A stretch of 32,000 bases of DNA from Candidatus Saccharimonadota bacterium (lineage in GTDB: Bacteria; Patescibacteriota; Gracilibacteria; UBA1369; 2-02-FULL-48-14), in the NCBI GenBank assembly GCA_016699145.1, contig CP064962.1:30001-62000 (forward strand), written 5' to 3'. The notes beneath the pieces were generated by a model, which searched no databases, was not told the origin of the DNA, and saw nothing but the letters and a program-made list of their open reading frames with translations. The position numbers and the translations under genes were made by a program. Below are positions 12,365 to 24,996 of this stretch, one piece after another (within the stretch, counting starts at the first letter, position 1; every line of letters starts with the position of its first letter).

Positions 12365-12384
12365 GGCTGGCCACTCGGGTCTAG
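12365..12384 (+). repeat. mosaic repeat family, copy A, L module plus CTAG core (split by IS5)
   Basis: GGCTGGCCACTCGGGTCTAG is identical to the copies at 20946, 23523 and 24804. Confidence 0.85.
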
Positions 12385-13225
12385 GAGCTGTTAACATAAA
12401 TAGAGGAGTGGTGTAGAGTGAAGTTACTCTAACCCTAACGCCATGTACCAGATGCTAACGGATGAACAGTTCAAACTGATCCAGCCTTATTTTCCAAAGC
12501 CCAGAAAGCCTGAAAAGATTCCACTGAAACGTTGCATGGATGCCATTTGTTATGTACTTAAAACAGGGTGCGCATGGAGACAAATGCCCTACGATTACAG
12601 AGAAAAAGAGAATGACTGGCACACGATTTATACAAGATACAAACGGTGGAGCGAATCTGGACTTTTTGGACAAATGCTTAGAGCACTTGAAGTAGCAGAT
12701 GTACTTCAAGTGCGAATAGCTTTCCTGGACAGTACAACAAATAGAGCGCACCACAGTGCAGCGGGAGCCATGAAAAAGGGGCCACAAGCGTTAGGCCGAA
12801 GTAGAGGTGGGTACACTACAAAAATTCACATGATTGCTGGAGATCCAGATCATGGGATGCACTTTGTTTTAACAGGTGGTGAAGTGAGCGATGTGAAAGT
12901 TGGAAAACAAATTTTGAGAGATTATTCGTTTCCAAAAACAGTAGATCATTTGGCTATGGACAAAGGTTATTCATGCTACAAAGTTCTGGAGCTGTGCAAA
13001 GAAAAAGGCATAACTCCAGTCGTTCCTCCAAAGGCAAAAATGAAATTTCCGTGGGAATACAACAAGAACATTTATGCCTACCGCAACGAGATTGAACGCC
13101 TATTTCACCGAATGAAAAATTACAGAAGAATTTCAACTCGCTATGACAAATTAGACCTGATGTATGCCTCCTTTATCTCCCTCTGCCTTGTGGCACTTTT
13201 ACTCAAAGTCTTATGTTAACAGCTC
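12385..13225 (+). mobile_element. intact IS5-family insertion sequence (841 bp)
   Basis: Perfect 15-bp terminal inverted repeats: GAGCTGTTAACATAA at 12385-12399 and its reverse complement at 13211-13225. A 4-bp CTAG direct repeat flanks the element (12381-12384 and 13226-13229). It holds a single DDE transposase ORF whose stop codon lies inside the right inverted repeat. Confidence 0.9.
12443..13219 (+). CDS. IS5-family DDE transposase
   Basis: LTDEQFKLIQPYFP.....R..........AICYVLKTGCAWRQMP.......W.T.Y.RY.RW...G is the N-terminal IS5 motif. FLDST, MDKGY and RNEIERLFHRMKNYRRISTRYDK match the DDE and YREK region. Confidence 0.9.
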   Translation: MYQMLTDEQFKLIQPYFPKPRKPEKIPLKRCMDAICYVLKTGCAWRQMPYDYREKENDWHTIYTRYKRWSESGLFGQMLRALEVADVLQVRIAFLDSTTNRAHHSAAGAMKKGPQALGRSRGGYTTKIHMIAGDPDHGMHFVLTGGEVSDVKVGKQILRDYSFPKTVDHLAMDKGYSCYKVLELCKEKGITPVVPPKAKMKFPWEYNKNIYAYRNEIERLFHRMKNYRRISTRYDKLDLMYASFISLCLVALLLKVLC

Positions 13226-13323
13226 CTAGTACCCTTTGGCCTGTTTCATTGTAGTGCCTCTTGTCGTGAGACACAATTGTGGTGTTTCAGGCTAAATGAG
13301 ACATTTGAGGCAGTATAAAAAGG
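13226..13323 (+). repeat. mosaic repeat family, copy A, core plus type-1 middle plus R module
   Basis: CTAGTACCCTTTGGCCTGTTTCATTGTAGTGCCTCTTGTCGTGAGACACAATTGTGGTGTTTCAGGCTAAATGAGACATTTGAGGCAGTATAAAAAGG aligns over its full length with 23539-23636 and 24820-24918. Confidence 0.85.
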
Positions 13324-13398
13324 AGATGGATTATTGATGAATCGAAGTGGTGGAATTATTTTTCATGTGCTAAACTGAGCCAACTCTTTGCCCCCTAA

Positions 13399-13692
13399 AT
13401 GAACATAATAACTTTTCTTCGCTCTTTCAGGATAGGGCCATTCGCGATTTTTGATTTTGCTCTTACGTACTTAATAGCCTATGCAGTCGGTCCATATTTG
13501 AAAAAAATTGGAATTCCTCTTTCTCGTGAGCAATTCATGTATTTGATATTACCGATAAGCCTTATTGTTCATTACGTTTTTAAGCAGGAGACCCCTTTAA
13601 CCCAAATGGTGCTTATGCCAAATGATTATTTCATTTGGAAAGGGGTTATCGTTCTTATGATAGTAATGGCTATTGTAAGACGAAAAAAGTAA
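13399..13692 (+). CDS. hypothetical membrane protein
   Basis: 97-aa ORF with three hydrophobic segments and a basic C-terminus. Confidence 0.55.
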   Translation: MNIITFLRSFRIGPFAIFDFALTYLIAYAVGPYLKKIGIPLSREQFMYLILPISLIVHYVFKQETPLTQMVLMPNDYFIWKGVIVLMIVMAIVRRKK

Positions 13693-13718
13693 CAGATATA
13701 TTTTAAATTTAAAACGCT

Positions 13719-14186
13719 ATGGGAAAAACCATTAAACTAATTGCGTCAATACTCCTCTGCGAAACGGCTGGAATTATAGGTGTTGGATTTACAACGTCAG
13801 CTATTCCAACTTGGTACGACGCCCTCAATAAACCCTCTTTTAATCCACCATCGTGGATATTTGGTCCGGTATGGACGGCGCTCTATTTCTTTATGGGTCT
13901 GTCTCTATTCTTAGTATGGATTAACCCTTCTAAGACAAAACAAAAAGCTTTCCTCTTCTTCTTTATCCAACTTTTACTGAATGCAATATGGTCTCCGGTT
14001 TTCTTTGGCTTGCGATCCACTTCCATGGGTTTGATCGTCATTATTTTTCTATGGATTTTCATCCTGCTAACACTAATCCACTTCTACAAGATATCTAAAC
14101 CCTCCGCTGCACTGCTAGCCCCATATTTTCTGTGGGTAAGTTTTGCAACCGTCCTCAATTTTTCAATATGGCAACTTAACTTATGA
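13719..14186 (+). CDS. tspO: TspO/MBR tryptophan-rich sensory protein
   Basis: WY..L.KPSFNPP.W.FGPVWT.LY..MG...W and the W-rich five-helix layout are typical of TspO. Confidence 0.9.
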   Translation: MGKTIKLIASILLCETAGIIGVGFTTSAIPTWYDALNKPSFNPPSWIFGPVWTALYFFMGLSLFLVWINPSKTKQKAFLFFFIQLLLNAIWSPVFFGLRSTSMGLIVIIFLWIFILLTLIHFYKISKPSAALLAPYFLWVSFATVLNFSIWQLNL

Positions 14187-14187
14187 G

Positions 14188-14201
14188 ATAGCCTCTAGTA
14201 C
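14188..14201 (+). repeat. mosaic repeat family, short core copy B'
   Basis: ATAGCCTCTAGTAC is identical to 15966-15979. It relates to the long L module by an internal deletion (ATGGC[TGGCCACTCGGG]TCTAGTAC). Confidence 0.6.
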
Positions 14202-14205
14202 AAGT

Positions 14206-14300
14206 AAATGGCAAAATACAAGAAGGGTATACCTATGAACTTGTTGAGCCAGAAGTAAAGAATTTTGATCCCGAATTCAAACCGGAACTTACTCCAAAGC
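14206..14300 (+). pseudogene. decayed 5' fragment of a paralogue of the 15485..15961 gene
   Basis: TTTTGATCCCGAATTCAAACCGGAACTTACTCCAAAG (14263-14299) matches 15531-15567 apart from two substitutions. Translation gives ..YTYELVEPEVKNFDPEFKPELTPK against MQKNYKYVLTEPVGKIFDPEFKPELTPK. The upstream ATG at 14208 is out of frame by one base. Confidence 0.6.
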
Positions 14301-14329
14301 TCACAATTAAATCCTTTAGCCGCGCCTCC

Positions 14330-14989
14330 ATGCCAAAAAAATTATTCTCTAATCATAAAAAAATGAATATACTCTGGATGATAGCCATCATCGCGGCTGC
14401 TCTCTTCTTGGTCTGGGTCGCCTTCGGTTACTTCGGAAGCCGCGTAGAAACACTCTCTTACACCGTTTTGAGCAGCGACAAAGAATATGAAATCAGAGAG
14501 CTGCCGGAGCACATCATTGCCGAAACCACGGTCAGCGGCAATTTTGACGACGCCAGCGGGGAGGCCTTTAACATTCTGGCCGGATATATTTTCGGGAACA
14601 ATGAAAAGAAACAATCCATAAGTATGACCAGTCCGGTGGTTGAAAATGAATACAAAAAGATCGCCATGACTGCCCCGGTTGTTGAACAAGATTCGGGGGC
14701 AAATCAAAAGATTTTTTCATTTGTCATGCCGGCCGAATACACAATGGAAACACTACCCGAGCCATTGGATAAAAGGATCACCATAAAAAAAGTGGAAAGT
14801 AAAAAAATAGCGGTTCTCACTTTCAGCGGTTTTTATTCTGAAAAGAAAATTAATGAAAAAAAACAACTGCTCAAACAATATCTGGATCGTGATGGCCTGG
14901 AATATTCCACCGTATCTTGGGCGGGTTATAATCCACCCTGGACTCCGCCTTTTATGCGCCGACTGGAGGTCTGGGCGGAGCTAAAATAA
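14330..14989 (+). CDS. SOUL/HBP-family heme-binding protein with an N-terminal membrane anchor
   Basis: YEIRELPEHIIAET...SGEAFNILAGYIFGNNEKKQSISMTSPV...MTAPV.. fits the SOUL family pattern, with an N-terminal TM helix. Confidence 0.8.
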   Translation: MPKKLFSNHKKMNILWMIAIIAAALFLVWVAFGYFGSRVETLSYTVLSSDKEYEIRELPEHIIAETTVSGNFDDASGEAFNILAGYIFGNNEKKQSISMTSPVVENEYKKIAMTAPVVEQDSGANQKIFSFVMPAEYTMETLPEPLDKRITIKKVESKKIAVLTFSGFYSEKKINEKKQLLKQYLDRDGLEYSTVSWAGYNPPWTPPFMRRLEVWAELK

Positions 14990-14998
14990 TTTTTAAAT

Positions 14999-15451
14999 AT
15001 GATAACACTCGATTTCATTGGCCTATTTATTTTTCTTGCCGGGTTTGTCATAGGCCTCGGGGCGGTAACGGTCATTGATATTCATGGTTTTCTGGGAAGA
15101 AAGTCCGCCTATTGGACCGAAGCAACCACACGAACACACAAAGTGACCAAACCGTTGATCTGGATTGGAATAATACTGGCGATCATAGGAGGAGCGATCT
15201 TGTATCGACATCAATCCTTTACGGGTGTGCCTTTCATGCACGCAATTATCGCGGTGATATTAATTTTAAACGGAATTTTCTTATCATTCAAAGTCAGCCC
15301 ATTTCTTCTGCAGCAGGAAAAAGAAGGAAAAGCCGGAACACTGCTTCCAAAATCATTACAGAGAAAAATCGTGGTAAGCTTGATTGTTTCCGATCTTGGT
15401 TGGTGGGGAGGGCTGCTTTTGTTTGTCTTTTATCTGGTGAATCAAAACTGA
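14999..15451 (+). CDS. hypothetical integral membrane protein (four helices)
   Basis: 150-aa hydrophobic ORF. No family recognised. Confidence 0.6.
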   Translation: MITLDFIGLFIFLAGFVIGLGAVTVIDIHGFLGRKSAYWTEATTRTHKVTKPLIWIGIILAIIGGAILYRHQSFTGVPFMHAIIAVILILNGIFLSFKVSPFLLQQEKEGKAGTLLPKSLQRKIVVSLIVSDLGWWGGLLLFVFYLVNQN

Positions 15452-15484
15452 TATGCGAAAAAGATAGTCATTGTGAATGACAAG

Positions 15485-15961
15485 ATGCAAAAAAATTACA
15501 AATATGTTTTAACTGAGCCTGTCGGAAAAATTTTTGATCCCGAATTCAAGCCGGAACTTACTCCGAAACAAATGCTGGAACTTGGTGTTTTTGGAGGTAA
15601 ATATATGACCGATTGTCAAAATGAATTCCCCGCAGATTGGTTTGAAAAAGCAAAACTTTGCTCAACCCATCATGAAGCGAAATTAAATTACTTTGGAATA
15701 AATGCGTCACAAGCTCTTTCCGTTTGGCAGAAAAAAGGCTGGATTTATCCTTTAGATCCTCGCGGATGGTTCCAGTGGTATTGCCGTTATTACATGGGAC
15801 GACGCATTGAGGAGGAAGACCGAAGACAAATCAAAAGATGGAAAGCCATCCAAAGACACATCGCACAGGTACGAAAAAACTGCCTAAAAGGCGATTTAAA
15901 TTGCAGACCAAAACAACGACAAGCCATTTTGCATTGGGCTTATGATTCTAGAAAAATATAA
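15485..15961 (+). CDS. conserved hypothetical protein (DPRGWFQWYCRYYMGRR motif)
   Basis: The ATG at 15485 (MQKNYKY...) is preferred over the track GTG at 15473. The soluble protein has a distinctive W/R-rich motif. I cannot name the family. Confidence 0.7.
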   Translation: MQKNYKYVLTEPVGKIFDPEFKPELTPKQMLELGVFGGKYMTDCQNEFPADWFEKAKLCSTHHEAKLNYFGINASQALSVWQKKGWIYPLDPRGWFQWYCRYYMGRRIEEEDRRQIKRWKAIQRHIAQVRKNCLKGDLNCRPKQRQAILHWAYDSRKI

Positions 15962-15965
15962 ATGC

Positions 15966-16072
15966 ATAGCCTCTAGTACCATTGTAGACTTTCTTATCCT
16001 AGCGTTTCTTGTCATGAGTCACAACGGCGGCCTTTCAGGATAAATGAGACATTTGAGACAGTGTAAAAAGGG
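15966..16072 (+). repeat. mosaic repeat family, copy B (short core plus divergent middle plus R module)
   Basis: ATAGCCTCTAGTACC...ATTGTAG...TTTCAGGATAAATGAGACATTTGAGACAGTGTAAAAAGGG. The R module is near-identical to copies D and E. The 5' CTGTCTCA arm is missing. Confidence 0.8.
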
Positions 16073-16142
16073 TTGACGTTAAAGCACTTATTGCAACCTA
16101 TTTGCAATAGTATTCAACTTGTCGCATTCACAAACATCCGAT

Positions 16143-17576
16143 ATGATCCTGCCATCCATGCACTCGATCAAATCGATTAATTCGCCCTGGTTAGAAAACT
16201 GGAGGTCCACGCGCCAATCAGCACAGTTGTCTCAAAATCTTGAAACGGAAATATTAATTGTAGGAGGGGGTATTGCCGGGCTTATGACTGCTTTTTTTGT
16301 GCTTCAAAAAACACGAAAAAATGTGGTTTTGTTGGAAGGAAACAGAGTCGCTCACGGGGCAACAGGTCACAATGCTGGCCAGCTGGTGACTTACTTTGAA
16401 ACAGACTTTTATCGCCTTGTTCAAAACTATGGACTCACCTTGGCTGCTAAAGCGTATCAAGATGTTTTAAGCGCGTGGGACCTATTAGAGGAAGTACAAA
16501 AAATCGTCCAGTTCAAAACTCCAATCCATATTTTTACGGGGTATGCAGGGATCTGTTCAAAGGAAGAGCTGTATGGTTACATGCAGAACCGTTTGTTGTT
16601 CAAGGAGGCAGGTCTGCAAACAGAGGCAATATTGATTTCCAGTGAATACAAAGGCCTCAAATCCATTCCAAAAAAATACGCCTCTACATTTGCATGTGTA
16701 CCACCTGGACAACTGATGAATCTCTTGCAAACAGAAAACATAAATTATTTTGCGGCAGGAGTTGCCAAAGCTGGAGTGACCAACAGCGCTCATCTCACCG
16801 AAGAACTCGCCATCTTCTTAACGGAAAAGTATCCAGATCGTTTCAAGATTTTTGAACACAGCATAGTGGACCGTTTGAAACTGAGAGAAGATGACGCGGT
16901 GGCAGAAGTTCGCGATGGACATCATGTGCAAGCTAAAAAAGTAGTTTTATGCACAAACGGATTCGAAAATATCAGTATATTAGATCATGGCCAATCAGAT
17001 TTAGATACACATTTTCATGAAAGTGTGTATGGGGTGATAGGGTATATGGCCGCTTATGTGGAAAATGTACAAAACGAGGCCACGGCCATCACGTATCATG
17101 ATACAGATTCAATCAAAACACGCAGTGATGCAGAAATCGTTCCTTATTTTTATTTGACGCGTCGGCCTCATGGAAACGAAGCGCAAAATAGTTTGGTGTG
17201 CCTTGGCGGTCCAGAAACTCGTCTGGAAGACAAAAAAGATTATCATGCTCAAGATCATGCTTATCCAGAAATGGCGCTTGCTGATTTAAGTGATGGGCTT
17301 AAAAAAAATTACGCCCCTGTCCCCAAAGGAACACTACGCTTTAAGTATGAGTGGCATGGCCTCATGGGATACACCCCGAGTGGACTACGTTGTGTGGGCC
17401 CCGAACCCTTGAATCCAGTATTGCTTTATAATCTGGGTTGCAATGGAGTGGGAATCCTCCCCTCTATTTTTGGTGGGAAGAGGGTCTCAGATTTCCTGCT
17501 CCATAAAAACTTAGACACATCGATTTTTGATCCACAAGCTACAGCATCTAAAGCTAAAAAGGGGCTTTGCCAGTGA
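16143..17576 (+). CDS. FAD-dependent oxidoreductase (DAO/glycine-oxidase-like superfamily)
   Basis: N-terminal Rossmann motif ILIVGGGIAGLMTAF; length and C-terminal GCNGVG pattern fit the FAD-dependent oxidoreductase (DAO) family. The start is uncertain (TTG 16119 or ATG 16143). Confidence 0.8.
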   Translation: MILPSMHSIKSINSPWLENWRSTRQSAQLSQNLETEILIVGGGIAGLMTAFFVLQKTRKNVVLLEGNRVAHGATGHNAGQLVTYFETDFYRLVQNYGLTLAAKAYQDVLSAWDLLEEVQKIVQFKTPIHIFTGYAGICSKEELYGYMQNRLLFKEAGLQTEAILISSEYKGLKSIPKKYASTFACVPPGQLMNLLQTENINYFAAGVAKAGVTNSAHLTEELAIFLTEKYPDRFKIFEHSIVDRLKLREDDAVAEVRDGHHVQAKKVVLCTNGFENISILDHGQSDLDTHFHESVYGVIGYMAAYVENVQNEATAITYHDTDSIKTRSDAEIVPYFYLTRRPHGNEAQNSLVCLGGPETRLEDKKDYHAQDHAYPEMALADLSDGLKKNYAPVPKGTLRFKYEWHGLMGYTPSGLRCVGPEPLNPVLLYNLGCNGVGILPSIFGGKRVSDFLLHKNLDTSIFDPQATASKAKKGLCQ

Positions 17577-18573
17577 TCAAAACCGCCAAATAACAAAGAT
17601 AAATAAAGATCATGACACCTCCTTGCCATCGTTCTATAACGTGTTTTTTTCCAACAAACATGATCAAGAACAAAACCAAACTGGCAGATATGGCCACCAA
17701 AATATCAAAATTAGAACTGTCACTGAAGGGCAAAGGACGAATGAGCGCACTACAACCCAGAATCCAAAATATATTAAAAATATTAGATCCAACGACATTC
17801 CCAATAGCAATATCAGTTTGTTTTTTATAGGCCGCAACTGCTGAAGTAGCTAATTCTGGCAACGAGGTTCCAATCGCTACAATCGTTAAACCAATGACAG
17901 ATTGACTGATGTTGAATGCTTCAGCCATTTTCACCGCTCCATCCACAATCCACTTGCCTCCAACTAAAAGGCCCAAGAGGCCCATAAGAATATATAGCGA
18001 AGATTTTAATATGCTGAGTTTCTTGATATCCGTCTCACTGCTGACTGGGCCCGTCACCTTTGATATCCCAAAGGTGTAATACAAAAAAATAATAAAAAAT
18101 GCGATGAACACGAGGCCATCAATCCGCGTCAGTCCCGAGTTAAGATCCCCGTCAATCCATGCATCGTTTGCGAGTATGCCTAATAAAATAGCGGCCAATA
18201 AACTGAGGGGAATTTCTTTCCAAACCGTATTCTCTTTAGTCGCCAGTGGATAGATTACAGCAGCAATCCCTAGTATAAGGAATATATTTGCAATGTTACT
18301 CCCAAGTACGTTTCCAATAGCGATTTCTGTATTTCCTTGCGCACTCGCTAGGATATTCACAATCAACTCCGGTGCAGAAGTTCCGAATGCTACAATAGTC
18401 AAACCAATCACCAAGCTTGAAATATTGAATTTCCGAGCTACTGAAGAAGCTCCATCTACCAAAAGATCCGCCCCCTTAATCAGTAAAGGGAACCCAAGAA
18501 TGAACAGAATGGCTGAAACCATAGAGAAAGGAAAATTTTTTGAGAGCATGCATGAAAACCTTTTAACCATCAA
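17554..18573 (-). CDS. Ca2+:cation antiporter (CaCA family, YrbG-like)
   Basis: Two alpha-repeat signatures (GTSAPELIVN...GNVLGSNIANI and GTSLPELATS...GNVVGSNIFNI) in a protein of about 10 TM helices. The 3' end overlaps the convergent oxidoreductase by 23 nt. Confidence 0.85.
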   Translation of the reverse strand: MMVKRFSCMLSKNFPFSMVSAILFILGFPLLIKGADLLVDGASSVARKFNISSLVIGLTIVAFGTSAPELIVNILASAQGNTEIAIGNVLGSNIANIFLILGIAAVIYPLATKENTVWKEIPLSLLAAILLGILANDAWIDGDLNSGLTRIDGLVFIAFFIIFLYYTFGISKVTGPVSSETDIKKLSILKSSLYILMGLLGLLVGGKWIVDGAVKMAEAFNISQSVIGLTIVAIGTSLPELATSAVAAYKKQTDIAIGNVVGSNIFNIFWILGCSALIRPLPFSDSSNFDILVAISASLVLFLIMFVGKKHVIERWQGGVMIFIYLCYLAVLITGKAPF

Positions 18574-18598
18574 GTTTATTTTTCATACTTCATGAGAA

Positions 18599-18618
18599 TT
18601 GGCACTCGGGAGTGACCC
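18599..18618 (+). repeat. degenerate core copy of the mosaic repeat
   Basis: TTGGCACTCGGGAGTGACCC against TGGCCACTCGGGTCTAGTACCC. It lies exactly at the truncation point of the IS30 relic. Confidence 0.5.
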
Positions 18619-18623
18619 AATAA

Positions 18624-18878: not shown

Positions 18879-18993
18879 ATGCAGGAAAGACATCATTTGG
18901 GTGTTAAGACATATTTTTTTTACATTGCAATACAAGGCGCTTGAGCTGCCTCCAGCTTCTTCTTAGAATCCGGTTTGCCTCTCACTTATATTC

Positions 18994-19455
18994 ATGAAAA
19001 AATACCTCGTCAAAAATTACATGCGGGACAAAGTTGTTACTTTGAATCCTACGGATACTGTTAAACACGCCGTTGAAGTGATGCTGAATCATAAGACGAA
19101 TGGGTTGGTGGTCATCGATGATAGCCGTCATGTATTAGGAATCCTTTCCAGTTGGGATGTCATTGCTTATTTAGTTCCAGATTATTTGGAGAACGATAAA
19201 CATCTTGCTTCTTTTGAAGCAGGGGATGTTTTTGAGGAGCGTGTAAAAGAGATCCAAAATGATTCGGTTTCTAAGTTTATGTCCAGTCATGTTCATACCA
19301 CTCGTCCGGAACATTCTCTCATAGAAGCAGCCACTCTTCTTTCGGAATTCCAAATTAGGCAATTGCCGGTTGTCGATGAGAATGGAATTCTTGTGGGATA
19401 TTTGAATCGTACGGATATCAAGAAGGCTATCGGAGACGTGCTTCACCTTTCTTAA
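18994..19455 (+). CDS. CBS-domain pair protein
   Basis: Two CBS repeats (M...VVTL.P.DTV..A...M..H...GL.V.D......G.LS..D and ..TT.PE.SL.EAA.LL.....RQLPVVDENG.LVGYL.R.D). Confidence 0.85.
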   Translation: MKKYLVKNYMRDKVVTLNPTDTVKHAVEVMLNHKTNGLVVIDDSRHVLGILSSWDVIAYLVPDYLENDKHLASFEAGDVFEERVKEIQNDSVSKFMSSHVHTTRPEHSLIEAATLLSEFQIRQLPVVDENGILVGYLNRTDIKKAIGDVLHLS

Positions 19456-19478
19456 CATTCTCTAACATCCATTTTGCT

Positions 19479-20762
19479 ATGACATTGGATTTTACTCTGA
19501 TTGCGGCTTTGATAATCTTTGTGGCTACCTATGGCCTGATTATTTCTGAAAAAATTCACCGCACTGTTTTGGCTCTTTTTGGGGCCGTGCTCATGATTTT
19601 ATTGGGTATTATCAATCAAGAATTGGCTCTTGAATCAGTAGATTTTAACACCTTGGGTCTGCTTATAGGAATGATGGTGATTGTGGGAATCGCGAAGGAT
19701 TCAGGCATGTTTCAGTTTGTAGCCCTGTGGGCGGCTCGTTTAGCAAAAGGGAAGCCCATTTCCATTTTTCTTTTACTCGGTTTTATTACAGCACTTTTTT
19801 CGGCATTCTTGGATAACGTGACTACCGTTCTTTTGATGGTTCCTGTGACTTTTGTGGTTTGTAATAACCTAAAAGTCAATCCTATGCCTTTTTTAATTGG
19901 GACTATCCTCCTCTCGAACATTGGAGGAACTGCCACGCTTATTGGAGATCCGCCCAATATTTTAATCGGAAGTGCTGCTCAGATTCCCTTCAATGATTTT
20001 TTGATTCATCTTGGACCAGTGATTTTAATCGTAACCTTTGTTACTTTAGCCATGCTTTATGGAATTTATAGGAAAGAACTAGTTGCTACTAAAGAAGCTC
20101 AGCTGTCTATTCTGAGTTTTAATCCTAAAGACGCGATTTCTGACTATCCTCTTCTTTACAGGTCTCTTTTTGTACTGGCCTTAGTTCTGATTGGTTTTTT
20201 CACGCACTCCATGACGCACTTTGAGGGAGCTACAATCGCATTGGGAGGAGCAGCTTTATTATTGCTACTCACCTTGAATGATCCTGAACATCATTTAAGA
20301 GATGTGGAGTGGACCACCATTTTCTTCTTTTTGGGATTGTTTATTCTGGTAGGGGGTTTAGAGAAGGTTGGTGTCATCCATTTTTTGGCAGAAAAGTTAG
20401 TGGAGGTGACGGATGGACAGCAGGTTCCTCTCACCCTTTCTGTGCTGTGGGGTTCTGCTTTCTTTTCTGCCGCTATCGATAATATTCCCTTTGTAGCCAC
20501 AATGATCCCATTGATTCAAAGTATTGGGGAATTTTCTCCCGGAGTGGACGTGATGCCTCTTTGGTGGGCCCTTGCTTTAGGGGCGGATATTGGCGGAAAT
20601 GCAACTCTGGTGGGAGCTTCTGCGAATGTGGTGGTGAGTGGGCTTGCTGGTAAACATGGTCATCGCATTGGTTTCTTTCAGTATATGAAAATCGCCGTTC
20701 CTTTAACCCTGGTTGCGTTGCTTATTTGTACGGTTTATATTTATCTTCGTTATTTGATGTAA
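19479..20762 (+). CDS. ArsB/NhaD-superfamily permease
   Basis: 427-aa polytopic protein. SAFLDNVTTVLLMVP....N.GG.ATLIGDPPN and ..SA.IDNIPF......GA..GGN.TL.GASAN are typical of the ArsB/NhaD (P-protein-like) family. Confidence 0.8.
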   Translation: MTLDFTLIAALIIFVATYGLIISEKIHRTVLALFGAVLMILLGIINQELALESVDFNTLGLLIGMMVIVGIAKDSGMFQFVALWAARLAKGKPISIFLLLGFITALFSAFLDNVTTVLLMVPVTFVVCNNLKVNPMPFLIGTILLSNIGGTATLIGDPPNILIGSAAQIPFNDFLIHLGPVILIVTFVTLAMLYGIYRKELVATKEAQLSILSFNPKDAISDYPLLYRSLFVLALVLIGFFTHSMTHFEGATIALGGAALLLLLTLNDPEHHLRDVEWTTIFFFLGLFILVGGLEKVGVIHFLAEKLVEVTDGQQVPLTLSVLWGSAFFSAAIDNIPFVATMIPLIQSIGEFSPGVDVMPLWWALALGADIGGNATLVGASANVVVSGLAGKHGHRIGFFQYMKIAVPLTLVALLICTVYIYLRYLM

Positions 20763-20844
20763 GCTTTTCTTTTGCAGATTTCTCCTAATGCCACTGCGCC
20801 TCAGGGGAACGGGAATTGAACCCTTTGCTGGACTTCCAAGGAAA

Positions 20845-20872
20845 GATCATCCTTAAACAGGGGTGATCTTTT
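20845..20872 (+). terminator. candidate intrinsic terminator downstream of the permease
   Basis: GATCATCC (20845-52) pairs with GGGTGATC (20861-68), including one G.T pair. The loop is 8 nt and TTTT follows. Confidence 0.5.
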
Positions 20873-20905
20873 ACTTCGTACAACGAAAATTCGAGTATCT
20901 ATCGC

Positions 20906-20967
20906 CATAGCTACTCGGGTCATAGGCTTTCAAACTGCCCGTAATGGCTGGCCACTCGGGTCTAGTA
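20906..20967 (+). repeat. mosaic repeat family, copy G (partial core plus extended L module plus core)
   Basis: CATAGCTACTCGGGTCAT then AGGCTTTCAAACTGCCCGTAATGGCTGGCCACTCGGGTCTAGTA. The extended L module aligns with 23506-23544 and 24783-24825. Confidence 0.8.
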
Positions 20968-21513
20968 TCCAAGCAAATGGGTGACAAGAATTTTTATCCC
21001 TAGAAAGATCAAGATGATTCCTCCAAGCTTTTCTGCATAAGAGGAAAGCGTTTTTTGGAATACTCGACTCAAACAAAGTCCTAAGAAAGACATCAAAAGC
21101 GTGACCACACCAATCATCAAAATACTACTCATAAAGTCGAGGTCAAGAGCATGAAATCCAACTCCTACAACCAAGGCATCAATGCTGGTTGCTAAGGCCA
21201 ATACTCCGATTGTTCCAAAAGAGAGAGGCCCTGACTTTTCTTCAATTTCATGCTCTTTTTTAAGATCAAATATCATATTTACTCCCAAGCCGCTTAGAAC
21301 AAAAAAGGCAATCCAATGGTCCACAGGCGCAATCCATCCTTCAAAGGGCATTCCCAGAAGATAGCCAAAGGCAGGCATCACCATTTGAAAAACAGCAAAA
21401 CTGATCGCAGCAAAAAAAAGCTTTGGGAAGGATCTATATTTGGAGCTTAAAGCTATTGAAGCAGCACAAGCATCCATGCTGAGGCCAAGGGCAGTGAGGA
21501 AAACAACATTCAT
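20962..21513 (-). CDS. mntP: manganese efflux pump MntP (DUF204 family)
   Basis: MNVVFLTALGLSMDACAASIALS... and a second half with ...ALATSIDALVVG... give the two-repeat MntP architecture. The stop codon is the TAG of the repeat core. Confidence 0.85.
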   Translation of the reverse strand: MNVVFLTALGLSMDACAASIALSSKYRSFPKLFFAAISFAVFQMVMPAFGYLLGMPFEGWIAPVDHWIAFFVLSGLGVNMIFDLKKEHEIEEKSGPLSFGTIGVLALATSIDALVVGVGFHALDLDFMSSILMIGVVTLLMSFLGLCLSRVFQKTLSSYAEKLGGIILIFLGIKILVTHLLGY

Positions 21514-21537
21514 AATGGAATTAAACCTAAATAAAAA

Positions 21538-21683
21538 ACTCGGGTCTAGTAATAGGAGCTATTCCCAGAGACTCCATAAGGAGTAAACCCAGCAAAGTTC
21601 TCCGCATGCACACCCAAGCTGGCATTGCGGGGAGACACAATTGTGGCACTTCGGGCTAAATGGGACGTTTGTCTCGTACAAGG
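21538..21683 (+). repeat. mosaic repeat family, copy C (core plus type-2 middle (M2) plus variant R module)
   Basis: ACTCGGGTCTAGTA, then ATAGGAGCTATTCCCAGAGAC, then M2 (TCCATAAGGAGTAAACCCAGCAAAGTTCTCCGCATGCACACCCAAGCTGGCATTGCGG), then GGAGACACAATTGTGGCACTTCGGGCTAAATGGGACGTTTGTCTCGTACAAGG. Confidence 0.8.
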
Positions 21684-21772
21684 ACTTGCTAATGCTCCTT
21701 CACATCTATTCCATCCAAAGAGAATGTCCTGCTAGAATGCCAACGTTTTTTCTCAAACCCATCCCACGAAAA

Positions 21773-23521
21773 ATGATGGCATTTCTAAACTCAGATAAAC
21801 TTGCCCCCGCTCTAGTTATTCTTGGGTACTTTTTAGTCATAGGTCTCATAGGTGCCTACAGTCACCGCTTTTTAAAAAAAACCGCGGAAGATTATTTTTT
21901 GGGAGGAAGGGCCACCAAAACTTTGGTACTGCTCTTCACCATGGCGGCCACTAATTTTAGCGCCGTCACCATTTATGGATTTTCTGGAACGGCCTACCGC
22001 CAAGGTTATAGTTTTTTCCCCATCATGGCCTTTGGAACGGGTTTCATGGCACTCACCTTTTATTTTATCGGTAGACGCGTATGGGAACTGGGAAAAGAAA
22101 AAGGCTACATGACCCCCCCTCAGCTCATGGGAGATGAGATGAAGAGCCCTTGGCTCCGCCGTTTAGTTTTTTTGGTGATGCTTGTGTTCTCTCTCCCCTA
22201 TATCGCTATTCAGCCCATCGCCGGAGGGTACACCCTAGAAGCGCTCTTGGGCATTCCCTATTTTTTGGGAGCAAGCTTAGTAACGGGTATGATTCTTCTT
22301 TATACATTTTGGGGAGGATATCGCTCCGTTGCGTGGACCGATGTGGCACAAGGCATAATTATGCTCACGGTTATGCTGCTTACCGTGTGGGGCATCGCGG
22401 AAGCAGAGGGGGGGGTTGTGGCAGCCAACACAGCGGTATTTGAAAAAATGCCGGAGCTTTTTTCCCGTCCCGGTGCCGGTGAAGTTTATACTCCGGCGCT
22501 ATGGTTCAGTTACATGATTCTTTGGTTTTTTTGTGACCCTCTATTCCCACAACTGTTCCAACGATTCTTTGTGGCTAAAGAAAAAAAAGCTTTGAACCGA
22601 ACGATGATTTGGTACCCCCTCGTGACTGGCGTTTTCTTTTTACTACCCATGGTGATAGGAGTTTTAGGTCACTTGAGCATCCCCGGCCTAGAGGGCAAAG
22701 AAGCCGATAGAATTTTCCCGATGCTCGCAGAGCTGCATTTTTCTCCGGTCACTGCGGCCTTTATTGTAACAGCAGGTCTCGCAGCACTCATGTCCACTAT
22801 GGATTCACAAATGCTCACCCTCAGCTCCATGTTCACTAAAGATGTTTATGAACCACTCACCGGTCGGCCAGTGAAGGGCAATGGTGTGGGTCGAGCTTTT
22901 AGTGTGCTTTTAGCTGGCCTGGGTTTGCTCATTGCCTACTTCAACCCGAGCTCAATCCTGCAGATAACAACAGAAACCTTCACAGGGCTTGCAGTTCTCT
23001 TCCCAGCCTTAGTGGCCATTTTATATTGGCCACGTACCCATGCTGGGGCTGCTTGCACTTCGATATTGATGGGAGAACTCTTGGTTATTTTGTACCATTT
23101 CAAACTCTTACCAACGGGCGGCTTTTTATCAGTTATTCCCATCTTAGGATGCACCACAGTGATTTTGGTCTTGGGAAGTTACCTTGGGAAGGCAAAACCT
23201 CGTACCCTACCCAAAGTGCCTAAGTCCACTTGGATTTGGGGCATGCTTTTTTACAGGGATTTTTGCTTTATCCTTAGATTTTTGGAATTGGAGTCAGACT
23301 CCTACTTTATGGGGGGGCTTGCCTCTATGGGTGTGGGCTACTTTAGCCTTAAATGGGATCACCGCATTGGCTTTTTGGGTCTTGAGTTCAAGGAAGCAAA
23401 TCAAAGAAAACTAACACCTTTTCTCAGGATTGAAAGTATCTTTATAGGATACTCGTTGACTTTTGGAAAGTTTAAAAATTCCCACATGGATCGTTCAATG
23501 GGAAATACAAACTGCACGTGA
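21773..23521 (+). CDS. sodium:solute symporter (SSS) family transporter with an aberrant 3' end (probable frameshift at 23247-23252)
   Basis: The ATG at 21773 (MMAFLNSDKLAPALVILGYFLVIGLIGAYSHRFLKKTAEDYFLGGR) gives a typical SSS N-terminus. After about aa 492 the sequence stops looking like a membrane protein and runs into the repeat L module. The track start at 21641 lies inside repeat copy C. Confidence 0.75.
   Translation: MMAFLNSDKLAPALVILGYFLVIGLIGAYSHRFLKKTAEDYFLGGRATKTLVLLFTMAATNFSAVTIYGFSGTAYRQGYSFFPIMAFGTGFMALTFYFIGRRVWELGKEKGYMTPPQLMGDEMKSPWLRRLVFLVMLVFSLPYIAIQPIAGGYTLEALLGIPYFLGASLVTGMILLYTFWGGYRSVAWTDVAQGIIMLTVMLLTVWGIAEAEGGVVAANTAVFEKMPELFSRPGAGEVYTPALWFSYMILWFFCDPLFPQLFQRFFVAKEKKALNRTMIWYPLVTGVFFLLPMVIGVLGHLSIPGLEGKEADRIFPMLAELHFSPVTAAFIVTAGLAALMSTMDSQMLTLSSMFTKDVYEPLTGRPVKGNGVGRAFSVLLAGLGLLIAYFNPSSILQITTETFTGLAVLFPALVAILYWPRTHAGAACTSILMGELLVILYHFKLLPTGGFLSVIPILGCTTVILVLGSYLGKAKPRTLPKVPKSTWIWGMLFYRDFCFILRFLELESDSYFMGGLASMGVGYFSLKWDHRIGFLGLEFKEANQRKLTPFLRIESIFIGYSLTFGKFKNSHMDRSMGNTNCT
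23184..23414 (+). CDS. two-helix hydrophobic segment in the +1 frame, probably the true C-terminus of the SSS transporter
   Basis: ..FTGIFALSLDFWNWSQTPTLWGGLPLWVWATLALNGITALAFWVLSSRKQIKEN* is membrane-like. It joins smoothly to ...STWIWGMLF if one T is removed from the T6 run. Confidence 0.4.
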   Translation: MGRQNLVPYPKCLSPLGFGACFFTGIFALSLDFWNWSQTPTLWGGLPLWVWATLALNGITALAFWVLSSRKQIKEN

Positions 23522-23636
23522 TGGCTGGCCACTCGGGTCTAGTACCCTTTTGACCTGTCTCATTGTAGTGTCTCTTGCCGTGAGACACAACTATGGCGTT
23601 TCAGGATAAATGAGACACTTGAGACAGTATAAAAAA
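23506..23636 (+). repeat. mosaic repeat family, copy D (complete type-1 unit)
   Basis: ACAAACTGCACGTGATGGCTGGCCACTCGGGTCTAGTACCCTTTTGACCTGTCTCATTGTAGTGTCTCTTGCCGTGAGACACAACTATGGCGTTTCAGGATAAATGAGACACTTGAGACAGTATAAAAAAG. Confidence 0.85.
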
Positions 23637-23637
23637 G

Positions 23638-24303
23638 CTAGGAAGAACGAGCCGCCCACCGAACTTTGGTAGGTCTAAATCCTTGTCGCTCATAAAAATG
23701 CAGAGCAGACTCGTTCCCCACAGCAGCGCTGGTCCAAAATCGCCCCACTTGCCGTTCAGCAGCCCAGGTTTCAGCAGACTTCAAAAGACTTTTTCCATAG
23801 CCCTTGCCGCGAACTTTTTCGAGCACCATGAGTTCCAAAAGATAAGCCGAGCCATCGTCCTCCAGTTCCACCACGCTGAACCCCAGCAACTCTCCAGCCT
23901 CAAACACCCCATAAGCCGCCGCCGTCCCGTCTTGAAGTTTTTCATCGATCTCTACAAGGTAAGCATCGATTTCAAAAACCGCCGGATCAGCAAAATACTC
24001 AGTATCCAATTGATAGTGAAAAGCTTGCTGTTCAAAAAGCAAATCTTTGAACTGACGAACATCAGACAAAGGAACTATCTCCGGACTGACAACATGGACT
24101 TGAGGAATTTTCTCAATAAAAAGAAGCCGCTTTCGAAAGCCAGCGGGAGCTTCCACCTCTAGCGGTAAGTCGATTTGAATCCATTGTTTGGAAGCTGCAG
24201 GGACAGTAAAATCCGACCCAATTTTTTGTGACAAATCCAAGTACAAATAATCCGAAAAACTCAGATCGGTGACGAAGATGTGAACAGTCTCAAAAGGATG
24301 CAT
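23638..24303 (-). CDS. GNAT-family N-acetyltransferase with an N-terminal domain of unknown function
   Basis: The C-terminal half ...LLELMVLEKVRGKGYGKSLLKSAETWAAE......ESALHFYERQGF contains the GNAT acetyl-CoA motif A (R/Q-x-x-G-x-G/A). Confidence 0.8.
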   Translation of the reverse strand: MHPFETVHIFVTDLSFSDYLYLDLSQKIGSDFTVPAASKQWIQIDLPLEVEAPAGFRKRLLFIEKIPQVHVVSPEIVPLSDVRQFKDLLFEQQAFHYQLDTEYFADPAVFEIDAYLVEIDEKLQDGTAAAYGVFEAGELLGFSVVELEDDGSAYLLELMVLEKVRGKGYGKSLLKSAETWAAERQVGRFWTSAAVGNESALHFYERQGFRPTKVRWAARSS

Positions 24304-24406
24304 GCATCCACTTTATTCTTTTAGCAAAGAGTGGTAAACTCCTAACCTGTTAATAACAGACTATGCCAGAAAGACCAAATAGATATGATCGCCACATGAA
24401 TAAAAA

Positions 24407-24619
24407 AGCTTTGGCAGCAAAAAAAACTTCTCCAGGTAGGCCTTCTTCCTGCAAAACACTTCTGAATTCACCAATATTCTCTGCAATTTGCTCAGGGAAA
24501 ACCACATGAAACGGTGTCCCAATAGATCGGGCAAGAGTGGCAAGAGTGGCGCGTTCATTGAGAAGATCAGAAACATTCCTTGATTGCAGTGCTGGGAAAC
24601 GGCCTGGAGAATCACTCAT
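24407..24619 (-). pseudogene. N-terminal fragment (~71 aa) of a type III PLP-dependent (Orn/DAP/Arg-type) decarboxylase
   Basis: ...LARSIGTPFHVVFPEQIAENIGEFRSVL.....GEVFFAAKA matches the family N-terminus (GTP.yV.....i..n...f........yA.KAN). It breaks off before the PLP-lysine context is complete. The remaining track ORF down to 24350 is read-through junk. Confidence 0.6.
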
Positions 24620-24698
24620 ACCAGTTTGATCAAAATGGGGATTATTTTATGTTTTCTTTACAGATAAAACAAGAGGTTATTTCAGTTCGAAGAACAGA

Positions 24699-24918
24699 TT
24701 GACACTGCGGTACTAGCACTTCATAAGGAGTAAAACCAGCGAAGGCTCCGCATGCACGTCCAAACCAGCCTTGCGGATCACAAGGCTTTGTCATGCAACT
24801 GATGGCTGGCCACTCGGGTCTAGTACCCTTGGGACTGTCTCATTTTACCTATTCTTGCCGTGAGACACAATTGTGGCGTTTCAGGCTAAATGAGACATTT
24901 GAGACAGTATAAAAAGGG
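24699..24918 (+). repeat. mosaic repeat family, tandem copies E1 (degenerate L plus M2) and E2 (complete type-1 unit)
   Basis: E1 is TTGACACTGCGGTACTAG, then CACT, then M2 (24721-24776). E2 runs from 24783: AGGCTTTGTCATGCAACTGATGGCTGGCCACTCGGGTCTAGTACCCTTGGGACTGTCTCA...GAGACACAATTGTGGCGTTTCAGGCTAAATGAGACATTTGAGACAGTATAAAAAGGG. Confidence 0.85.
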
Positions 24919-24937
24919 CGACTCAAATTTGTTTTAT

Positions 24938-24980: not shown

Positions 24981-24996
24981 TTAACAAATCTTATTT

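What the first reader, a model, noticed from the sequence alone, without database searches (positions are those of the whole stretch)
12365..24918. Accessory genes arranged as a cassette-like array punctuated by a novel mosaic repeat family
At least ten copies or fragments of one repeat family occur between 12.3 and 24.9 kb. All lie in the same (+) orientation, and I saw none in 1-12.3 kb. They are at 12365-84 plus 13226-323 (split by IS5), 14188-201, 15966-16072, 18599-618, 20906-67, 21538-683, 23506-636, 24699-776 and 24783-918. A complete type-1 unit has four parts. First, an L module (..CAAACTGCNCGTRATGGCTGGCCACTCGGGT). Second, a CTAG core. Third, a middle segment (TACCCTTTTGACCTGTCTCATTGTAGTGTCTCTTGCCGT). 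Fourth, an R module (GAGACACAATTGTGGCGTTTCAGGMTAAATGAGACAYTTGAGACAGTATAAAAA). The copies split the region into blocks of 1-3 genes with unrelated functions and both gene orientations: membrane protein plus TspO; SOUL plus two others; FAD oxidoreductase plus Ca antiporter; CBS plus ArsB/NhaD; MntP; SSS; GNAT; CsoR-CopA. Junctions carry gene debris: an IS30 relic, a 5' gene fragment and a truncated decarboxylase. Each block that follows an R module on the + strand starts about 76-92 nt after it, with its own unrelated leader. This is the signature of repeated site-specific insertion. However, the repeats do not resemble integron attC sites (no R''/L''...GTTRRRY organisation) or dif sites, and no integrase or recombinase is in the window.
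Basis: partly seen in the sequence, partly recalled or inferred. Interest (0 to 1): 0.85.

Follow-up and report, generated by a model that had tools for sequence, protein, structure and literature searches.

The report
Mobile-element attachment scars mimicking tRNA-Gln
The repeats are real. They are most likely the docking-site scars of phage-like mobile elements that insert at the end of a glutamine tRNA gene in tiny "candidate phyla radiation" bacteria, so this 12-kb stretch is an island of imported genes rather than a new kind of repeat.

Summary
The repeat family is real. Eight of the ten listed copies are solid; 14188 and 18599 are too short to judge. All lie on one strand and only between 12.36 and 24.92 kb.

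- **The left module copies a tRNA end.** It is the reverse complement of a 28-nt imitation of the tRNA-Gln 3' end (AAGGGTACTAGACCCGAGTGGCCAGCCA).
- **The flanking "debris" recurs next to real tRNA-Gln genes.** The same sequences follow genuine tRNA-Gln genes in related Peribacteria.
- **All four junction combinations exist.** They switch at a shared CCAGCCA.
- **One contig shows the insertion directly.** It carries a 4.4-kb insert between tRNA-Gln and that flank.
- **The full unit ends a phage-like element.** The 116-nt unit closes a terminase/ParB-methylase/Zn-ribbon-HTH module in seven other loci.
- **A recombinase candidate exists.** Large serine recombinase genes or remnants sit at the opposite end of that module or about 230 nt from the core.
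- **The region is variable.** Related genomes join the window's left and right flanks directly to one unit.

Best reading: attachment-site scars from serial site-specific insertions, with cargo between them. The CTAG crossover and the "unrelated to anything known" claim do not.

Unresolved: arrays elsewhere of 28-nt core-only sites bounding single genes look integron-like. No recombinase is in the window.

The parts
12364..12384 (+). Unit 1, outer part. Read on the minus strand it is the tRNA-Gln-3'-end-like core. It is cut at CTAG by the IS.
   Evidence: D3; nhmmer 12364-12388
12385..13225 (+). IS5-family insertion sequence inside unit 1. Transposase at 12443-13219, inverted repeats GAGCTGTTAACATAA, and CTAG duplicated at 12381-12384 and 13226-13229.
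   Evidence: I1; DUF4096, DDE_Tnp_1
13226..13323 (+). Unit 1, inner part: middle segment plus the R arm with TGAGACA boxes, ending TATAAAAAGG.
   Evidence: D1; E=1e-28
14188..14201 (+). Doubtful fragment. ATAGCCTCTAGTAC is shared only with the 15966 copy.
   Evidence: not found by nhmmer
15966..16072 (+). Unit 2. It is divergent (70% identity to the reference copy). It has the R arm and CTAGTACC but lacks the tRNA-like acceptor part.
   Evidence: E=2e-24
18599..18878 (+). Doubtful core fragment (18599-18618) followed by an IS30-type transposase C-terminal relic (about 18627-18878).
20790..20846 (-). A second tRNA-3'-end-like core with a canonical T loop (GGGTTCAATTCCC). It is homologous to the site that lies next to serine-recombinase gene remnants in L014 and L061.
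   Evidence: no tRNA called
20870..20944 (+). 'L extension', the P'-type flank. Its reverse complement matches the sequence that directly follows tRNA-Gln(CTG) in L007/L059 and follows units in L014, L017 and L022.
20945..20970 (+). Core-only copy. Its CTA (20962-20964) is the stop codon of MntP on the minus strand.
21539..21671 (+). Chimeric copy. It joins the core CTCGGGTCTAGTA, a 93-nt piece of module X (92% identity to L068) and a partial R arm.
   Evidence: (D2, D7, D10)
23506..23637 (+). Unit 3, full at 23522-23637, preceded by a short P'-like stretch that overlaps the stop codon of the SSF transporter gene.
   Evidence: (E=4e-35)
24699..24802 (+). Module X. It is the reverse complement of the sequence that directly follows tRNA-Gln in L003, L016 and L068.
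   Evidence: 24718-24809, 91%
24803..24918 (+). Unit 4, full. It occupies exactly the place of the tRNA-Gln gene relative to X.
   Evidence: (E=4e-40)
11240..31481 (.). Approximate extent of the variable island. Its limits are set by comparison with related genomes; the tRNA-Gln itself is not in the window.
- Related genomes join DUF1428 or DUF2200 on one side directly to a single unit.
- On the other side they join BacA or the cation-efflux genes directly to a single unit.

Best explanation
**What the repeat is.** It is the attachment-site region of a family of phage-derived integrative elements of Peribacteria and other candidate-phyla-radiation (CPR) bacteria.

**Anatomy of a full unit (116 nt).**
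- A 28-nt core that, read on the minus strand, imitates the T arm, acceptor strand and CCA of tRNA-Gln (AAGGGTACTAGACCCGAGTGGCCAGCCA).
- A roughly 90-nt arm carrying three to five TGAGACA/TGTCTCA boxes and ending in TATAAAAAGG.

**How the elements insert.**
- They enter by site-specific recombination at the 3' end of tRNA-Gln.
- The exchange falls within or next to the shared CCAGCCA.
- After insertion the arm plus core lies at the end of the element that is far from the tRNA.

**How the window's array arose.**
- Repeated insertions, some into secondary look-alike sites, followed by decay produced a series of junction scars: unit|X, unit|P'-flank, core-only and chimeras.
- Cargo genes lie between the scars, mainly for ion and metal handling, plus an acetyltransferase.
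- Relics of IS elements also lie there.

**Enzyme (inferred).** The likely enzyme is a large serine recombinase encoded at the other end of intact elements. None is left in the window.

**Shown versus inferred.**
- Shown: the junction combinations, one 4.4-kb insertion, the link to the phage-like module, and the variability between genomes.
- Inferred: the recombinase identity, the exact crossover, and the role of the TGAGACA boxes as binding sites, possibly for the conserved Zn-ribbon/HTH_17 protein.
For: 1. **tRNA-Gln association.**
   - tRNA-Gln genes lie in 5 repeat-bearing loci, always antiparallel to the unit and on its R side.
   - The core matches the tRNA-Gln 3' end at 15 of 26 positions and ends at the same CCA.
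2. **Shared flanks.**
   - Module X follows tRNA-Gln in L003, L016 and L068. It follows a unit in L007/L059 and at window 24803.
   - The 'L extension' follows tRNA-Gln(CTG) in L007. It follows units in L014, L017, L021, L022 and at window 20945.
   - All four combinations therefore exist, and they switch at CCAGCCA.
3. **A direct insertion.**
   - L068 reads gmk, tRNA-Gln, X without interruption.
   - L059 has a 4.44-kb insert between the tRNA's CCA and X.
   - The insert ends in a unit and is flanked by CCAGCCA on both sides.
4. **Link to a phage-like module.** The unit closes a conserved module (terminase-like, ParB-methylase, Zn-ribbon/HTH_17, then defence cargo) in L008, L046, L061, L062, L067, L069 and L070.
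5. **Serine recombinase.**
   - Full genes (63% identical to each other) sit at the other end of that module in L068 and L071.
   - C-terminal remnants lie about 230 nt from the core on the P' side in L014 and L061. A fragment lies near X in L016.
6. **Variability between genomes.**
   - L028 joins DUF1428 to one unit.
   - L019 and L024 join one unit to BacA or the cation-efflux genes.
   - So window 12.3-30 kb is variable.
7. **Copy number and cargo.**
   - Copies are few and dispersed: 4 exact R matches in a complete 1.3-Mb chromosome.
   - Neighbouring genes are typical island cargo, such as toxin-antitoxin pairs, methylases, Pycsar, SIR2-like genes and metal genes.
Against: - **No tRNA-Gln or recombinase in the window.** No tyrosine recombinase was found in about 400 kb around 58 repeat loci.
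- **Serine recombinase link is by position only.**
  - One related element (L067) carries an rve-type integrase instead.
  - In L014 and L061 the site nearest the recombinase remnant is a second core-like motif, not the main core.
- **Status of X is uncertain.**
  - X may be the arm of an older resident element rather than native flank. Serine recombinase genes lie after X in L068 and L016.
  - If so, no truly empty site has been seen, and insertion into an occupied site would be unusual for serine recombinases.
- **Position of X in the window.** X lies in the middle of the array, not at its far end as simple accretion predicts.
- **Core-only arrays.** Arrays of 28-nt core-only sites bounding intact single genes (L024, L028, L031) are not explained by decay of large elements.
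- **Search bias.** The near-invariance of the R 21-mer across phyla is forced by the search pattern used.
Confidence: 0.65

Rival explanations
1. **Integron-like gene-capture platform.** The full unit is a resident complex site comparable to attI. It may carry an outward promoter (TTGTGT-N17-TAnnAT on the minus strand). A recombinase encoded elsewhere inserts small circles, each one gene plus a 28-nt core, next to it and so builds cassette arrays.
For: - In at least seven loci the order in tRNA orientation is the same: full unit, gene, core, gene, core.
- The core-only sites always lie on the same side of the full unit.
- Cassettes are 400-650 bp, with the site within about 10 nt of the stop codon and 8-30 nt before the next start. 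Most genes point forward.
- Core-only sites are sharply bounded on both sides.
- Cassette genes are all different between arrays.
- L017 has two extra genes plus a core between the full unit and DUF1428, relative to L028 and the window.
- The window's MntP block lies exactly between two TACTAGACCCGAG repeats.
Against: - No recombinase gene is adjacent to any full unit.
- The window holds four full units in 12 kb rather than one platform.
- Full units demonstrably sit at the ends of phage-like elements.
- Variation also occurs on the R side of the unit.
- The promoter is only a weak consensus match and was not picked up by the scan.
- No excised cassette circle and no cassette shared between arrays was seen.
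Confidence: 0.2
2. **Non-autonomous transposable repeat.** The unit is a MITE or a REP/BIME-type element that spreads by transposition and only happens to sit between genes.
For: - The unit is sharply bounded at both ends, with unrelated DNA on both sides in about 40 different contexts.
- It has a mosaic make-up.
- It contains internal inverted TGTCTCA/TGAGACA motifs.
- One related element carries an rve-type DDE integrase.
Against: - There are no terminal inverted repeats and no target duplication other than the CCAGCCA shared with tRNA-Gln.
- Copy number is very low: 4 exact R matches in a 1.3-Mb chromosome.
- Orientation is strictly constant within arrays and relative to tRNA-Gln.
- The left TGTCTCA box varies with no compensating change in its partner, so no hairpin is conserved.
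- There is no palindromic REP core.
Confidence: 0.04
3. **Cis-regulatory or RNA element.** The unit is a promoter/operator module, for example for metal-homeostasis operons, or a small RNA, and was copied by duplication.
For: - It ends in a TATAAAAAGG box.
- In 17 of 21 co-oriented cases the next gene starts 43-107 nt after R.
- CsoR-family operons follow R in the window and in L018, L021 and L037.
- The repeated TGAGACA boxes look like operator sites.
Against: - Half of the R flanks carry a convergent gene, sometimes ending 1-10 nt after R.
- No canonical -35/-10 pair was detected.
- No Rfam family matched.
- There are no compensatory changes.
- This reading does not explain the tRNA-Gln mimicry, the junction combinations or the 4.4-kb insertion.
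Confidence: 0.05
4. **Ordinary homologous recombination.** The scars come from RecA-type recombination or duplication among copies of the tRNA-Gln region, perhaps after DNA uptake, with no dedicated recombinase. The units act merely as portable stretches of homology.
For: - No recombinase is present in the window or in most loci.
- Units of 28-116 nt could support RecA-dependent exchange.
- Chimeric copies such as 21539-21671 look like illegitimate or homologous joins.
Against: - The breakpoints are sharp and recur at the same position (CCAGCCA) in independent lineages.
- Core-only sites are precisely bounded.
- Serine recombinase genes and remnants are physically associated with the sites.
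Confidence: 0.06

Closest known systems
Integrative elements and genomic islands that insert at the 3' end of tRNA genes, including tandem accretion of islands (general knowledge, not from a paper read here)
   Same: - A tRNA 3'-end-like direct repeat sits at the far end of the insert.
- The tRNA gene stays intact.
- All four attB/attP/attL/attR-type combinations are present.
- The cargo consists of defence and accessory genes.
- Several scars lie in tandem.
   Different: - The repeat is an imitation (15 of 26 positions) rather than an exact copy of the tRNA end. Only CCAGCCA is shared.
- A conserved arm of about 90 nt with TGAGACA boxes stays attached.
- Core-only copies bound single genes.
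- The likely enzyme is a serine rather than a tyrosine recombinase.
- The hosts are CPR bacteria, for which I found no published description.
Integrons (IntI, attI, attC cassette arrays)
   Same: - One complex site is followed by same-oriented simple sites that bound mostly single, mostly co-oriented, promoter-less genes of unrelated function.
- The unit size (116 nt) is close to that of Vibrio attC repeats.
   Different: - There is no IntI next to the array.
- The sites have no R''/L''...L'/R' inverted-repeat structure and no conserved hairpin.
- The simple site is 28 nt and tRNA-like.
- Full units occur several times and sit at the ends of phage-like elements.
Large serine recombinase (phage integrase) attP/attB systems
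   Same: - A recombinase gene with Resolvase, Recombinase and Zn_ribbon_recom domains lies a few hundred nt from the core.
- The core has an imperfect dyad, CCCGAG-TGGC-CA-GCCA-TTACGGG, around a non-palindromic centre.
- The identity between the partner sites is short.
   Different: - The conserved region (116 nt plus a P' flank of 70 nt or more) is much longer than a typical attP of about 50 bp.
- Insertion seems to occur into already occupied sites.
- No activity has been tested.
Phage satellites and prophages with cargo hotspots next to the attachment site (P4-like, PICI-like; general knowledge)
   Same: - A conserved small core of phage-type genes (terminase-like, ParB-methylase).
- A variable defence-gene slot (Pycsar, SIR2-like DUF4917, DUF6119, Abi) lies between a conserved gene and the att end.
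   Different: - The gene set is different.
- No capsid or replication genes were identified.
- The hosts are CPR bacteria.

Membership tests
Integron | Tyrosine recombinase IntI encoded next to the array | tested here: not met
   - No Phage_integrase-type protein in the window.
- No XerD-like match in about 400 kb of 58 loci.
Integron | attC sites: imperfect inverted repeats (R''-L''...L'-R', GTTRRRY) that fold as a hairpin | tested here: not met
   - The ends of the unit are not inverted repeats.
- The left TGTCTCA box varies with no compensating change.
- No GTTRRRY motif is present.
Integron | One complex site followed by same-oriented simple sites that bound single-gene cassettes | tested here: inconclusive
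   - Seen in L024, L028, L031, L017, L003, L019 and L044.
- The window itself has four full units and mixed gene orientation.
tRNA-targeting integrative element / genomic island | Direct repeat corresponding to the tRNA 3' end at the far end of the insert, with the tRNA intact | tested here: met
   L059: tRNA-Gln, 4.44-kb insert, then a unit ending ...CCAGCCA, with the 7-bp repeat at both junctions. The repeat beyond those 7 bp is only tRNA-like (15 of 26).
tRNA-targeting integrative element / genomic island | Occupied and unoccupied versions of the same site in related genomes | tested here: inconclusive
   - L068, L003 and L016 have tRNA-Gln contiguous with X, whereas L059 has the insert.
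- X may itself belong to an older element.
tRNA-targeting integrative element / genomic island | Integrase encoded within the element | tested here: inconclusive
   - Present in L068 and L071 (serine recombinase) and in L067 (rve).
- Remnants in L014, L061 and L016.
- Absent from the window and from L059.
Large serine recombinase att site | Site of about 40-50 bp with imperfect dyad symmetry around a central dinucleotide, close to the recombinase gene | tested here: inconclusive
   - The dyad CCCGAG-TGGC-CA-GCCA-TTACGGG was read by eye.
- The recombinase stop codon lies about 230 nt away in L014 and L061.
- No statistical or functional test was done.
Large serine recombinase att site | Recombination between attP and attB catalysed by the enzyme | not testable with these tools
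   Needs an in vivo or in vitro assay.
REP/BIME | Short palindromic units, high copy number, both orientations, genome-wide in intergenic regions | tested here: not met
   - Four exact R matches in a complete 1.3-Mb chromosome.
- One orientation within arrays.
- No palindromic unit.
MITE | Terminal inverted repeats and a target-site duplication | tested here: not met
   The ends TGGCTGGCC... and ...TATAAAAAGG are unrelated, and flanks show no duplication.
IS5 family (the element inside unit 1) | DDE_Tnp_1 transposase, terminal inverted repeats, 4-bp duplication of a YTAR-type target | tested here: met
   (I1); CTAG duplicated.

The most novel reading that the evidence does not exclude
CPR bacteria may have an integron-like gene-capture system built from different parts.
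- Resident site: a 116-nt complex site made of a tRNA-Gln-mimic core plus an arm with TGAGACA boxes and an outward promoter.
- Cassette boundary: 28-nt core-only sites that bound single-gene cassettes.
- Enzyme: a serine recombinase, or another enzyme, encoded elsewhere, for example on a phage-like element.
- Convergence: this would have arisen independently of IntI/attC integrons.
Probability: 0.2. Interest if true: 0.8.

Novelty: new variant of a known kind. Interest (0 to 1): 0.55.

Why it matters
- **Gene flow in CPR bacteria.** Almost nothing is known about how these bacteria, with genomes of about 1 Mb and an episymbiotic lifestyle, gain and lose genes. This family marks the borders of their imported DNA. 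It occurs in many Peribacteria, with diverged versions in Roizman-, Woese- and Gracilibacteria MAGs.
- **A practical marker.** It gives a simple sequence tag for finding islands, defence cargo and phage-like elements in such genomes.
- **A recombinase-site pair to test.** It offers a candidate serine recombinase with defined sites, a type of enzyme used as a genome-engineering tool.
- **Possible convergence with integrons.** If the core-only cassette arrays prove to be an active capture system, that would be an independent invention of the integron principle.

Tried and rejected
- **Known RNA families.** Rfam at gathering and at permissive thresholds found nothing for the units, for X or for 20740-21000.
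- **tRNA in the array.** ARAGORN finds only tRNA-Leu at 775-863.
- **Whole unit as a degenerate tRNA-Gln gene.** Only the last 26-28 nt align convincingly. The apparent D-arm similarity (CAAG..CGGTAAG) was not supported by MAFFT.
- **Promoter or terminator in the unit.** No consensus hit and no orientation bias of the next gene.
- **Conserved hairpin (attC-like).** No compensatory changes. X has a conserved hairpin but no covariation.
- **Source contig.** Exact look-ups of the window's SSF and CopA proteins found nothing, so the window's ends could not be extended.
- **Viral contigs, phage records, plasmids.** No match to the R or L patterns or to unit+X.
- **The 431-aa protein next to tRNA-Gln in L007 as a hidden integrase.** It belongs to a sporadic family of hypothetical proteins with no domains. 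This looks like cargo.
- **Walking further into L061 via its HsdM.** HsdM homologues in L063-L066 have no units.
- **Literature.** No description of this repeat was found.

Full report

Yes. I built a profile from 17 full copies, two from the window and 15 from other genomes. In the window it hits:
- 12364-12388 and 13226-13324
- 15972-16072
- 20945-20972
- 21615-21671
- 23522-23637
- 24803-24918

E-values reach 4e-40, and there is no hit outside 12.36-24.92 kb.

Other points of the observation:
- **Weak copies.** The fragments at 14188 and 18599 are too short to distinguish from chance.
- **IS split.** It is an 841-bp IS5-family element at 12385-13225 with CTAG duplicated on each side.
- **IS30 relic.** Confirmed.
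- **5' gene fragment.** Confirmed.
- **Decarboxylase N-terminus.** Confirmed, though weakly.

**2. Where else does it occur?**

- The 21-mer from the R module (TAAATGAGACAYTTGAGRCAG) was found in 26 stretches of the species-representative genome set.
- Most are Candidatus Peribacteria or Peregrinibacteria MAGs. Diverged versions occur in Roizman-, Woese- and Gracilibacteria MAGs and in some MAGs labelled Gammaproteobacteria.
- It was also found in 32 metagenome contigs.
- Viral contigs, phage records and plasmids gave nothing.
- A complete 1.3-Mb Peribacteria chromosome has four exact matches, at about 392, 880, 920 and 1296 kb, all on one strand. This is a low-copy family, not a REP-like one.
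- The invariance of the 21-mer is forced by the search pattern. The flanking TTCAGGC and TATAAAAAGG were not forced and are also conserved.

**3. The region is variable between genomes.**

- In L028 the window's DUF1428 gene is followed directly by a single full unit.
- In L024 one unit abuts, within 8 nt, the cation-efflux gene that lies at 30873 in the window.
- In L019 one unit is followed by BacA.
- In L059 a unit is followed by other genes and then the window's DUF2200.
- The segment from about 11.2 kb to at least 30-31 kb is therefore a hotspot whose content differs between related genomes.

**4. What the left module is.**

- Read on the minus strand, the left module is AAGGGTACTAGACCCGAGTGGCCAGCCA.
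- That sequence is a T-arm-like hairpin, an acceptor strand, G and CCA.
- Real tRNA-Gln genes of these organisms end GGGTTCGAATCCTACCGCCCCAGCCA, which matches at 15 of 26 positions including the terminal CCAGCCA.
- tRNA-Gln genes were found in five repeat-bearing loci. They are always antiparallel to the unit and on its R side, 0.85-6.3 kb away.

**5. The flanks give the strongest evidence.**

- **Module X.**
  - It is the reverse complement of the sequence that directly follows tRNA-Gln in L003, L016 and L068.
  - In L007/L059 and in the window the same sequence directly follows a unit, with the switch exactly at CCA.
- **The 'L extension'.**
  - The stretch GGGTCATAGGCTTTCAAACTGCNCGTAA is the reverse complement of what follows tRNA-Gln(CTG) in L007.
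  - It also follows units in L014, L017, L021, L022 and window 20945, for at least 70 nt.
- **All four combinations exist:** tRNA|X, unit|X, tRNA|extension and unit|extension. This is the pattern that site-specific recombination between two sites produces.

**6. A direct insertion.**

- L068 reads gmk, tRNA-Gln, X without interruption.
- L059 reads gmk, tRNA-Gln, a 4.44-kb insert, X.
- The insert starts with the extension-type flank, ends with a unit, and has CCAGCCA at both junctions.
- Its genes are cargo-like: a SIR2-like DUF4917, a DUF2971, and a 431-aa protein from a sporadic family without domains.

**7. Which elements carry the unit?**

- A Zn-ribbon protein with a C-terminal HTH_17 domain recurs near units.
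- Its homologues sit in a conserved module. In order, the module contains:
  - a terminase-large-like gene (weak Terminase_6C match);
  - a 137-aa HTH protein;
  - an N6/N4 methylase;
  - a ParB-methylase;
  - a gene of about 200 aa;
  - the Zn-ribbon/HTH gene;
  - variable defence cargo (Pycsar, DUF6119, Abi, DUF4917, KwaB).
- A full unit lies 2-4 kb beyond the Zn-ribbon gene in L008, L046, L061, L062, L067, L069 and L070.
- The unit is therefore the conserved end of a phage-derived element, and the cargo slot lies just inside it.
- This explains why the R edge is sharp and why its neighbour differs in 42 of about 45 contexts. Gene orientation there shows no bias, 21 against 21.

**8. The recombinase.**

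- No tyrosine recombinase was found near any repeat.
- At the other end of the module, L068 and L071 carry large serine recombinases that are 63% identical to each other. L067 carries an rve-type integrase instead.
- tblastn with the L068 enzyme found:
  - a full homologue in L011;
  - C-terminal remnants in L014 and L061, about 230 nt from the core on the extension side and reading toward it;
  - fragments near X in L016.
- The serine recombinase is thus the leading candidate, but the case rests on position only.
- The core with its extension reads CCCGAG-TGGC-CA-GCCA-TTACGGG, an imperfect dyad. This is my reading by eye, not a test.

**9. What does not fit.**

- X may be the arm of an older element rather than native flank, because serine recombinase genes lie after X in L068 and L016. 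In that case I have seen no truly empty site.
- In the window X lies in the middle of the array.
- A second core-like motif lies between the extension and the recombinase remnants. In the window (20790-20846) this motif has a canonical T loop, TTCAATT, where L014 and L061 have TACTAGA.
- Some copies switch near CTCGGGTCTAGTA rather than at CCAGCCA: 21539, 15966 and the two ends of the MntP block.
- Arrays of the form 'full unit, gene, 28-nt core, gene, core' occur in L024, L028, L031 and elsewhere. They have tight spacing and unrelated intact genes, and they look like cassette arrays rather than decayed islands.

**10. Verdict.**

- The family is best read as attachment-site scars of tRNA-Gln-targeting, phage-like integrative elements, with imported cargo between them.
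The CTAG crossover and the lack of any known relative do not.
- The kind of system is known. The particular site architecture, the CPR hosts and the core-only cassette arrays are new as far as I could find.

Noticed in passing
window 24699-24802 and 21539-21631; L003:1335-1500, L016:6440-6606, L068:332-500: Module X is a noncoding sequence of about 130 nt that follows tRNA-Gln.
- Its first 55 nt are almost invariant across genomes and form a GCATG...CATGC hairpin.
- It contains an internal TACTAGACCCGAG site.
- It matches no Rfam family.
- It is unclear whether it is native flank, an element arm or an RNA.
   Followed up: partly
window 20790-20846 (minus strand): A second tRNA-3'-end-like core with a canonical T loop (GGGTTCAATTCCC). 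It is about 70% identical to a motif that lies next to serine recombinase remnants in L014 and L061, where the loop reads TACTAGA. This suggests the odd TACTAGA loops derive from real T loops.
   Followed up: partly
window 12385-13225: An IS5-family element inserted precisely in the CTAG of unit 1, with CTAG duplicated. This is probably why CTAG looked like a recombination core.
   Followed up: yes
window 11240-12297: DUF1428, a Zn-ribbon gene and a 96-aa gene also vary between genomes.
- DUF1428 is a cassette between a full unit and a core-only site in L028.
- It is truncated in L017.
- So the variable array extends left of 12.3 kb, up to DUF2200.
   Followed up: partly
L008:3652-4746 and homologues P0071-P0085 (L046, L007, L026, L039, L061, L062, L067-L071): A protein of about 360 aa with several CxxC zinc ribbons and a C-terminal excisionase-type HTH_17 domain. 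It is always the last conserved gene before the cargo slot and the unit, which makes it a candidate binder of the TGAGACA boxes.
   Followed up: partly
L007:6105-7400 (P0001) and 69 homologues: A protein family of 430-460 aa with no known domains. It is scattered across bacteria and archaea (Methanobacterium, Bathyarchaeota) and here sits next to a SIR2-like gene inside the 4.4-kb insert. It is possibly a defence gene.
   Followed up: partly
L015, L020, L023, L025, L026, L002, L051 (loci): Diverged units in other CPR lineages and in 'Gammaproteobacteria' MAGs.
- They have a different tRNA-like left module (TGCTGAGCGTnCCGGnCTAGAACC).
- They carry an extra TGTCTCA box after TATAAAAAGG, forming an inverted repeat around that box.
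   Followed up: no
L069:15905-16079: The 3' end of another large serine recombinase gene overlaps a tRNA-Ser gene. This suggests serine recombinases commonly target tRNA genes in these organisms.
   Followed up: no
OZ246396.1 (L004, L010, L014, L017): All four exact R-module matches in this complete chromosome lie on the same strand, although they are spread over 900 kb.
   Followed up: no
window 14192-14298 and 15473-15567: An N-terminal fragment (…FDPEFKPELTPK…) of a paralogue of the 162-aa gene lies directly after the doubtful 14188 site. This is debris of a former neighbour.
   Followed up: partly
L018, L021, L037, L014 and window 24997-25272: CsoR-family metal repressor operons lie directly after the R arm in several independent contexts. 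Metal-handling genes (CopA, cation efflux, MntP, ArsR, Fur, FeoAB) are over-represented as cargo.
   Followed up: no
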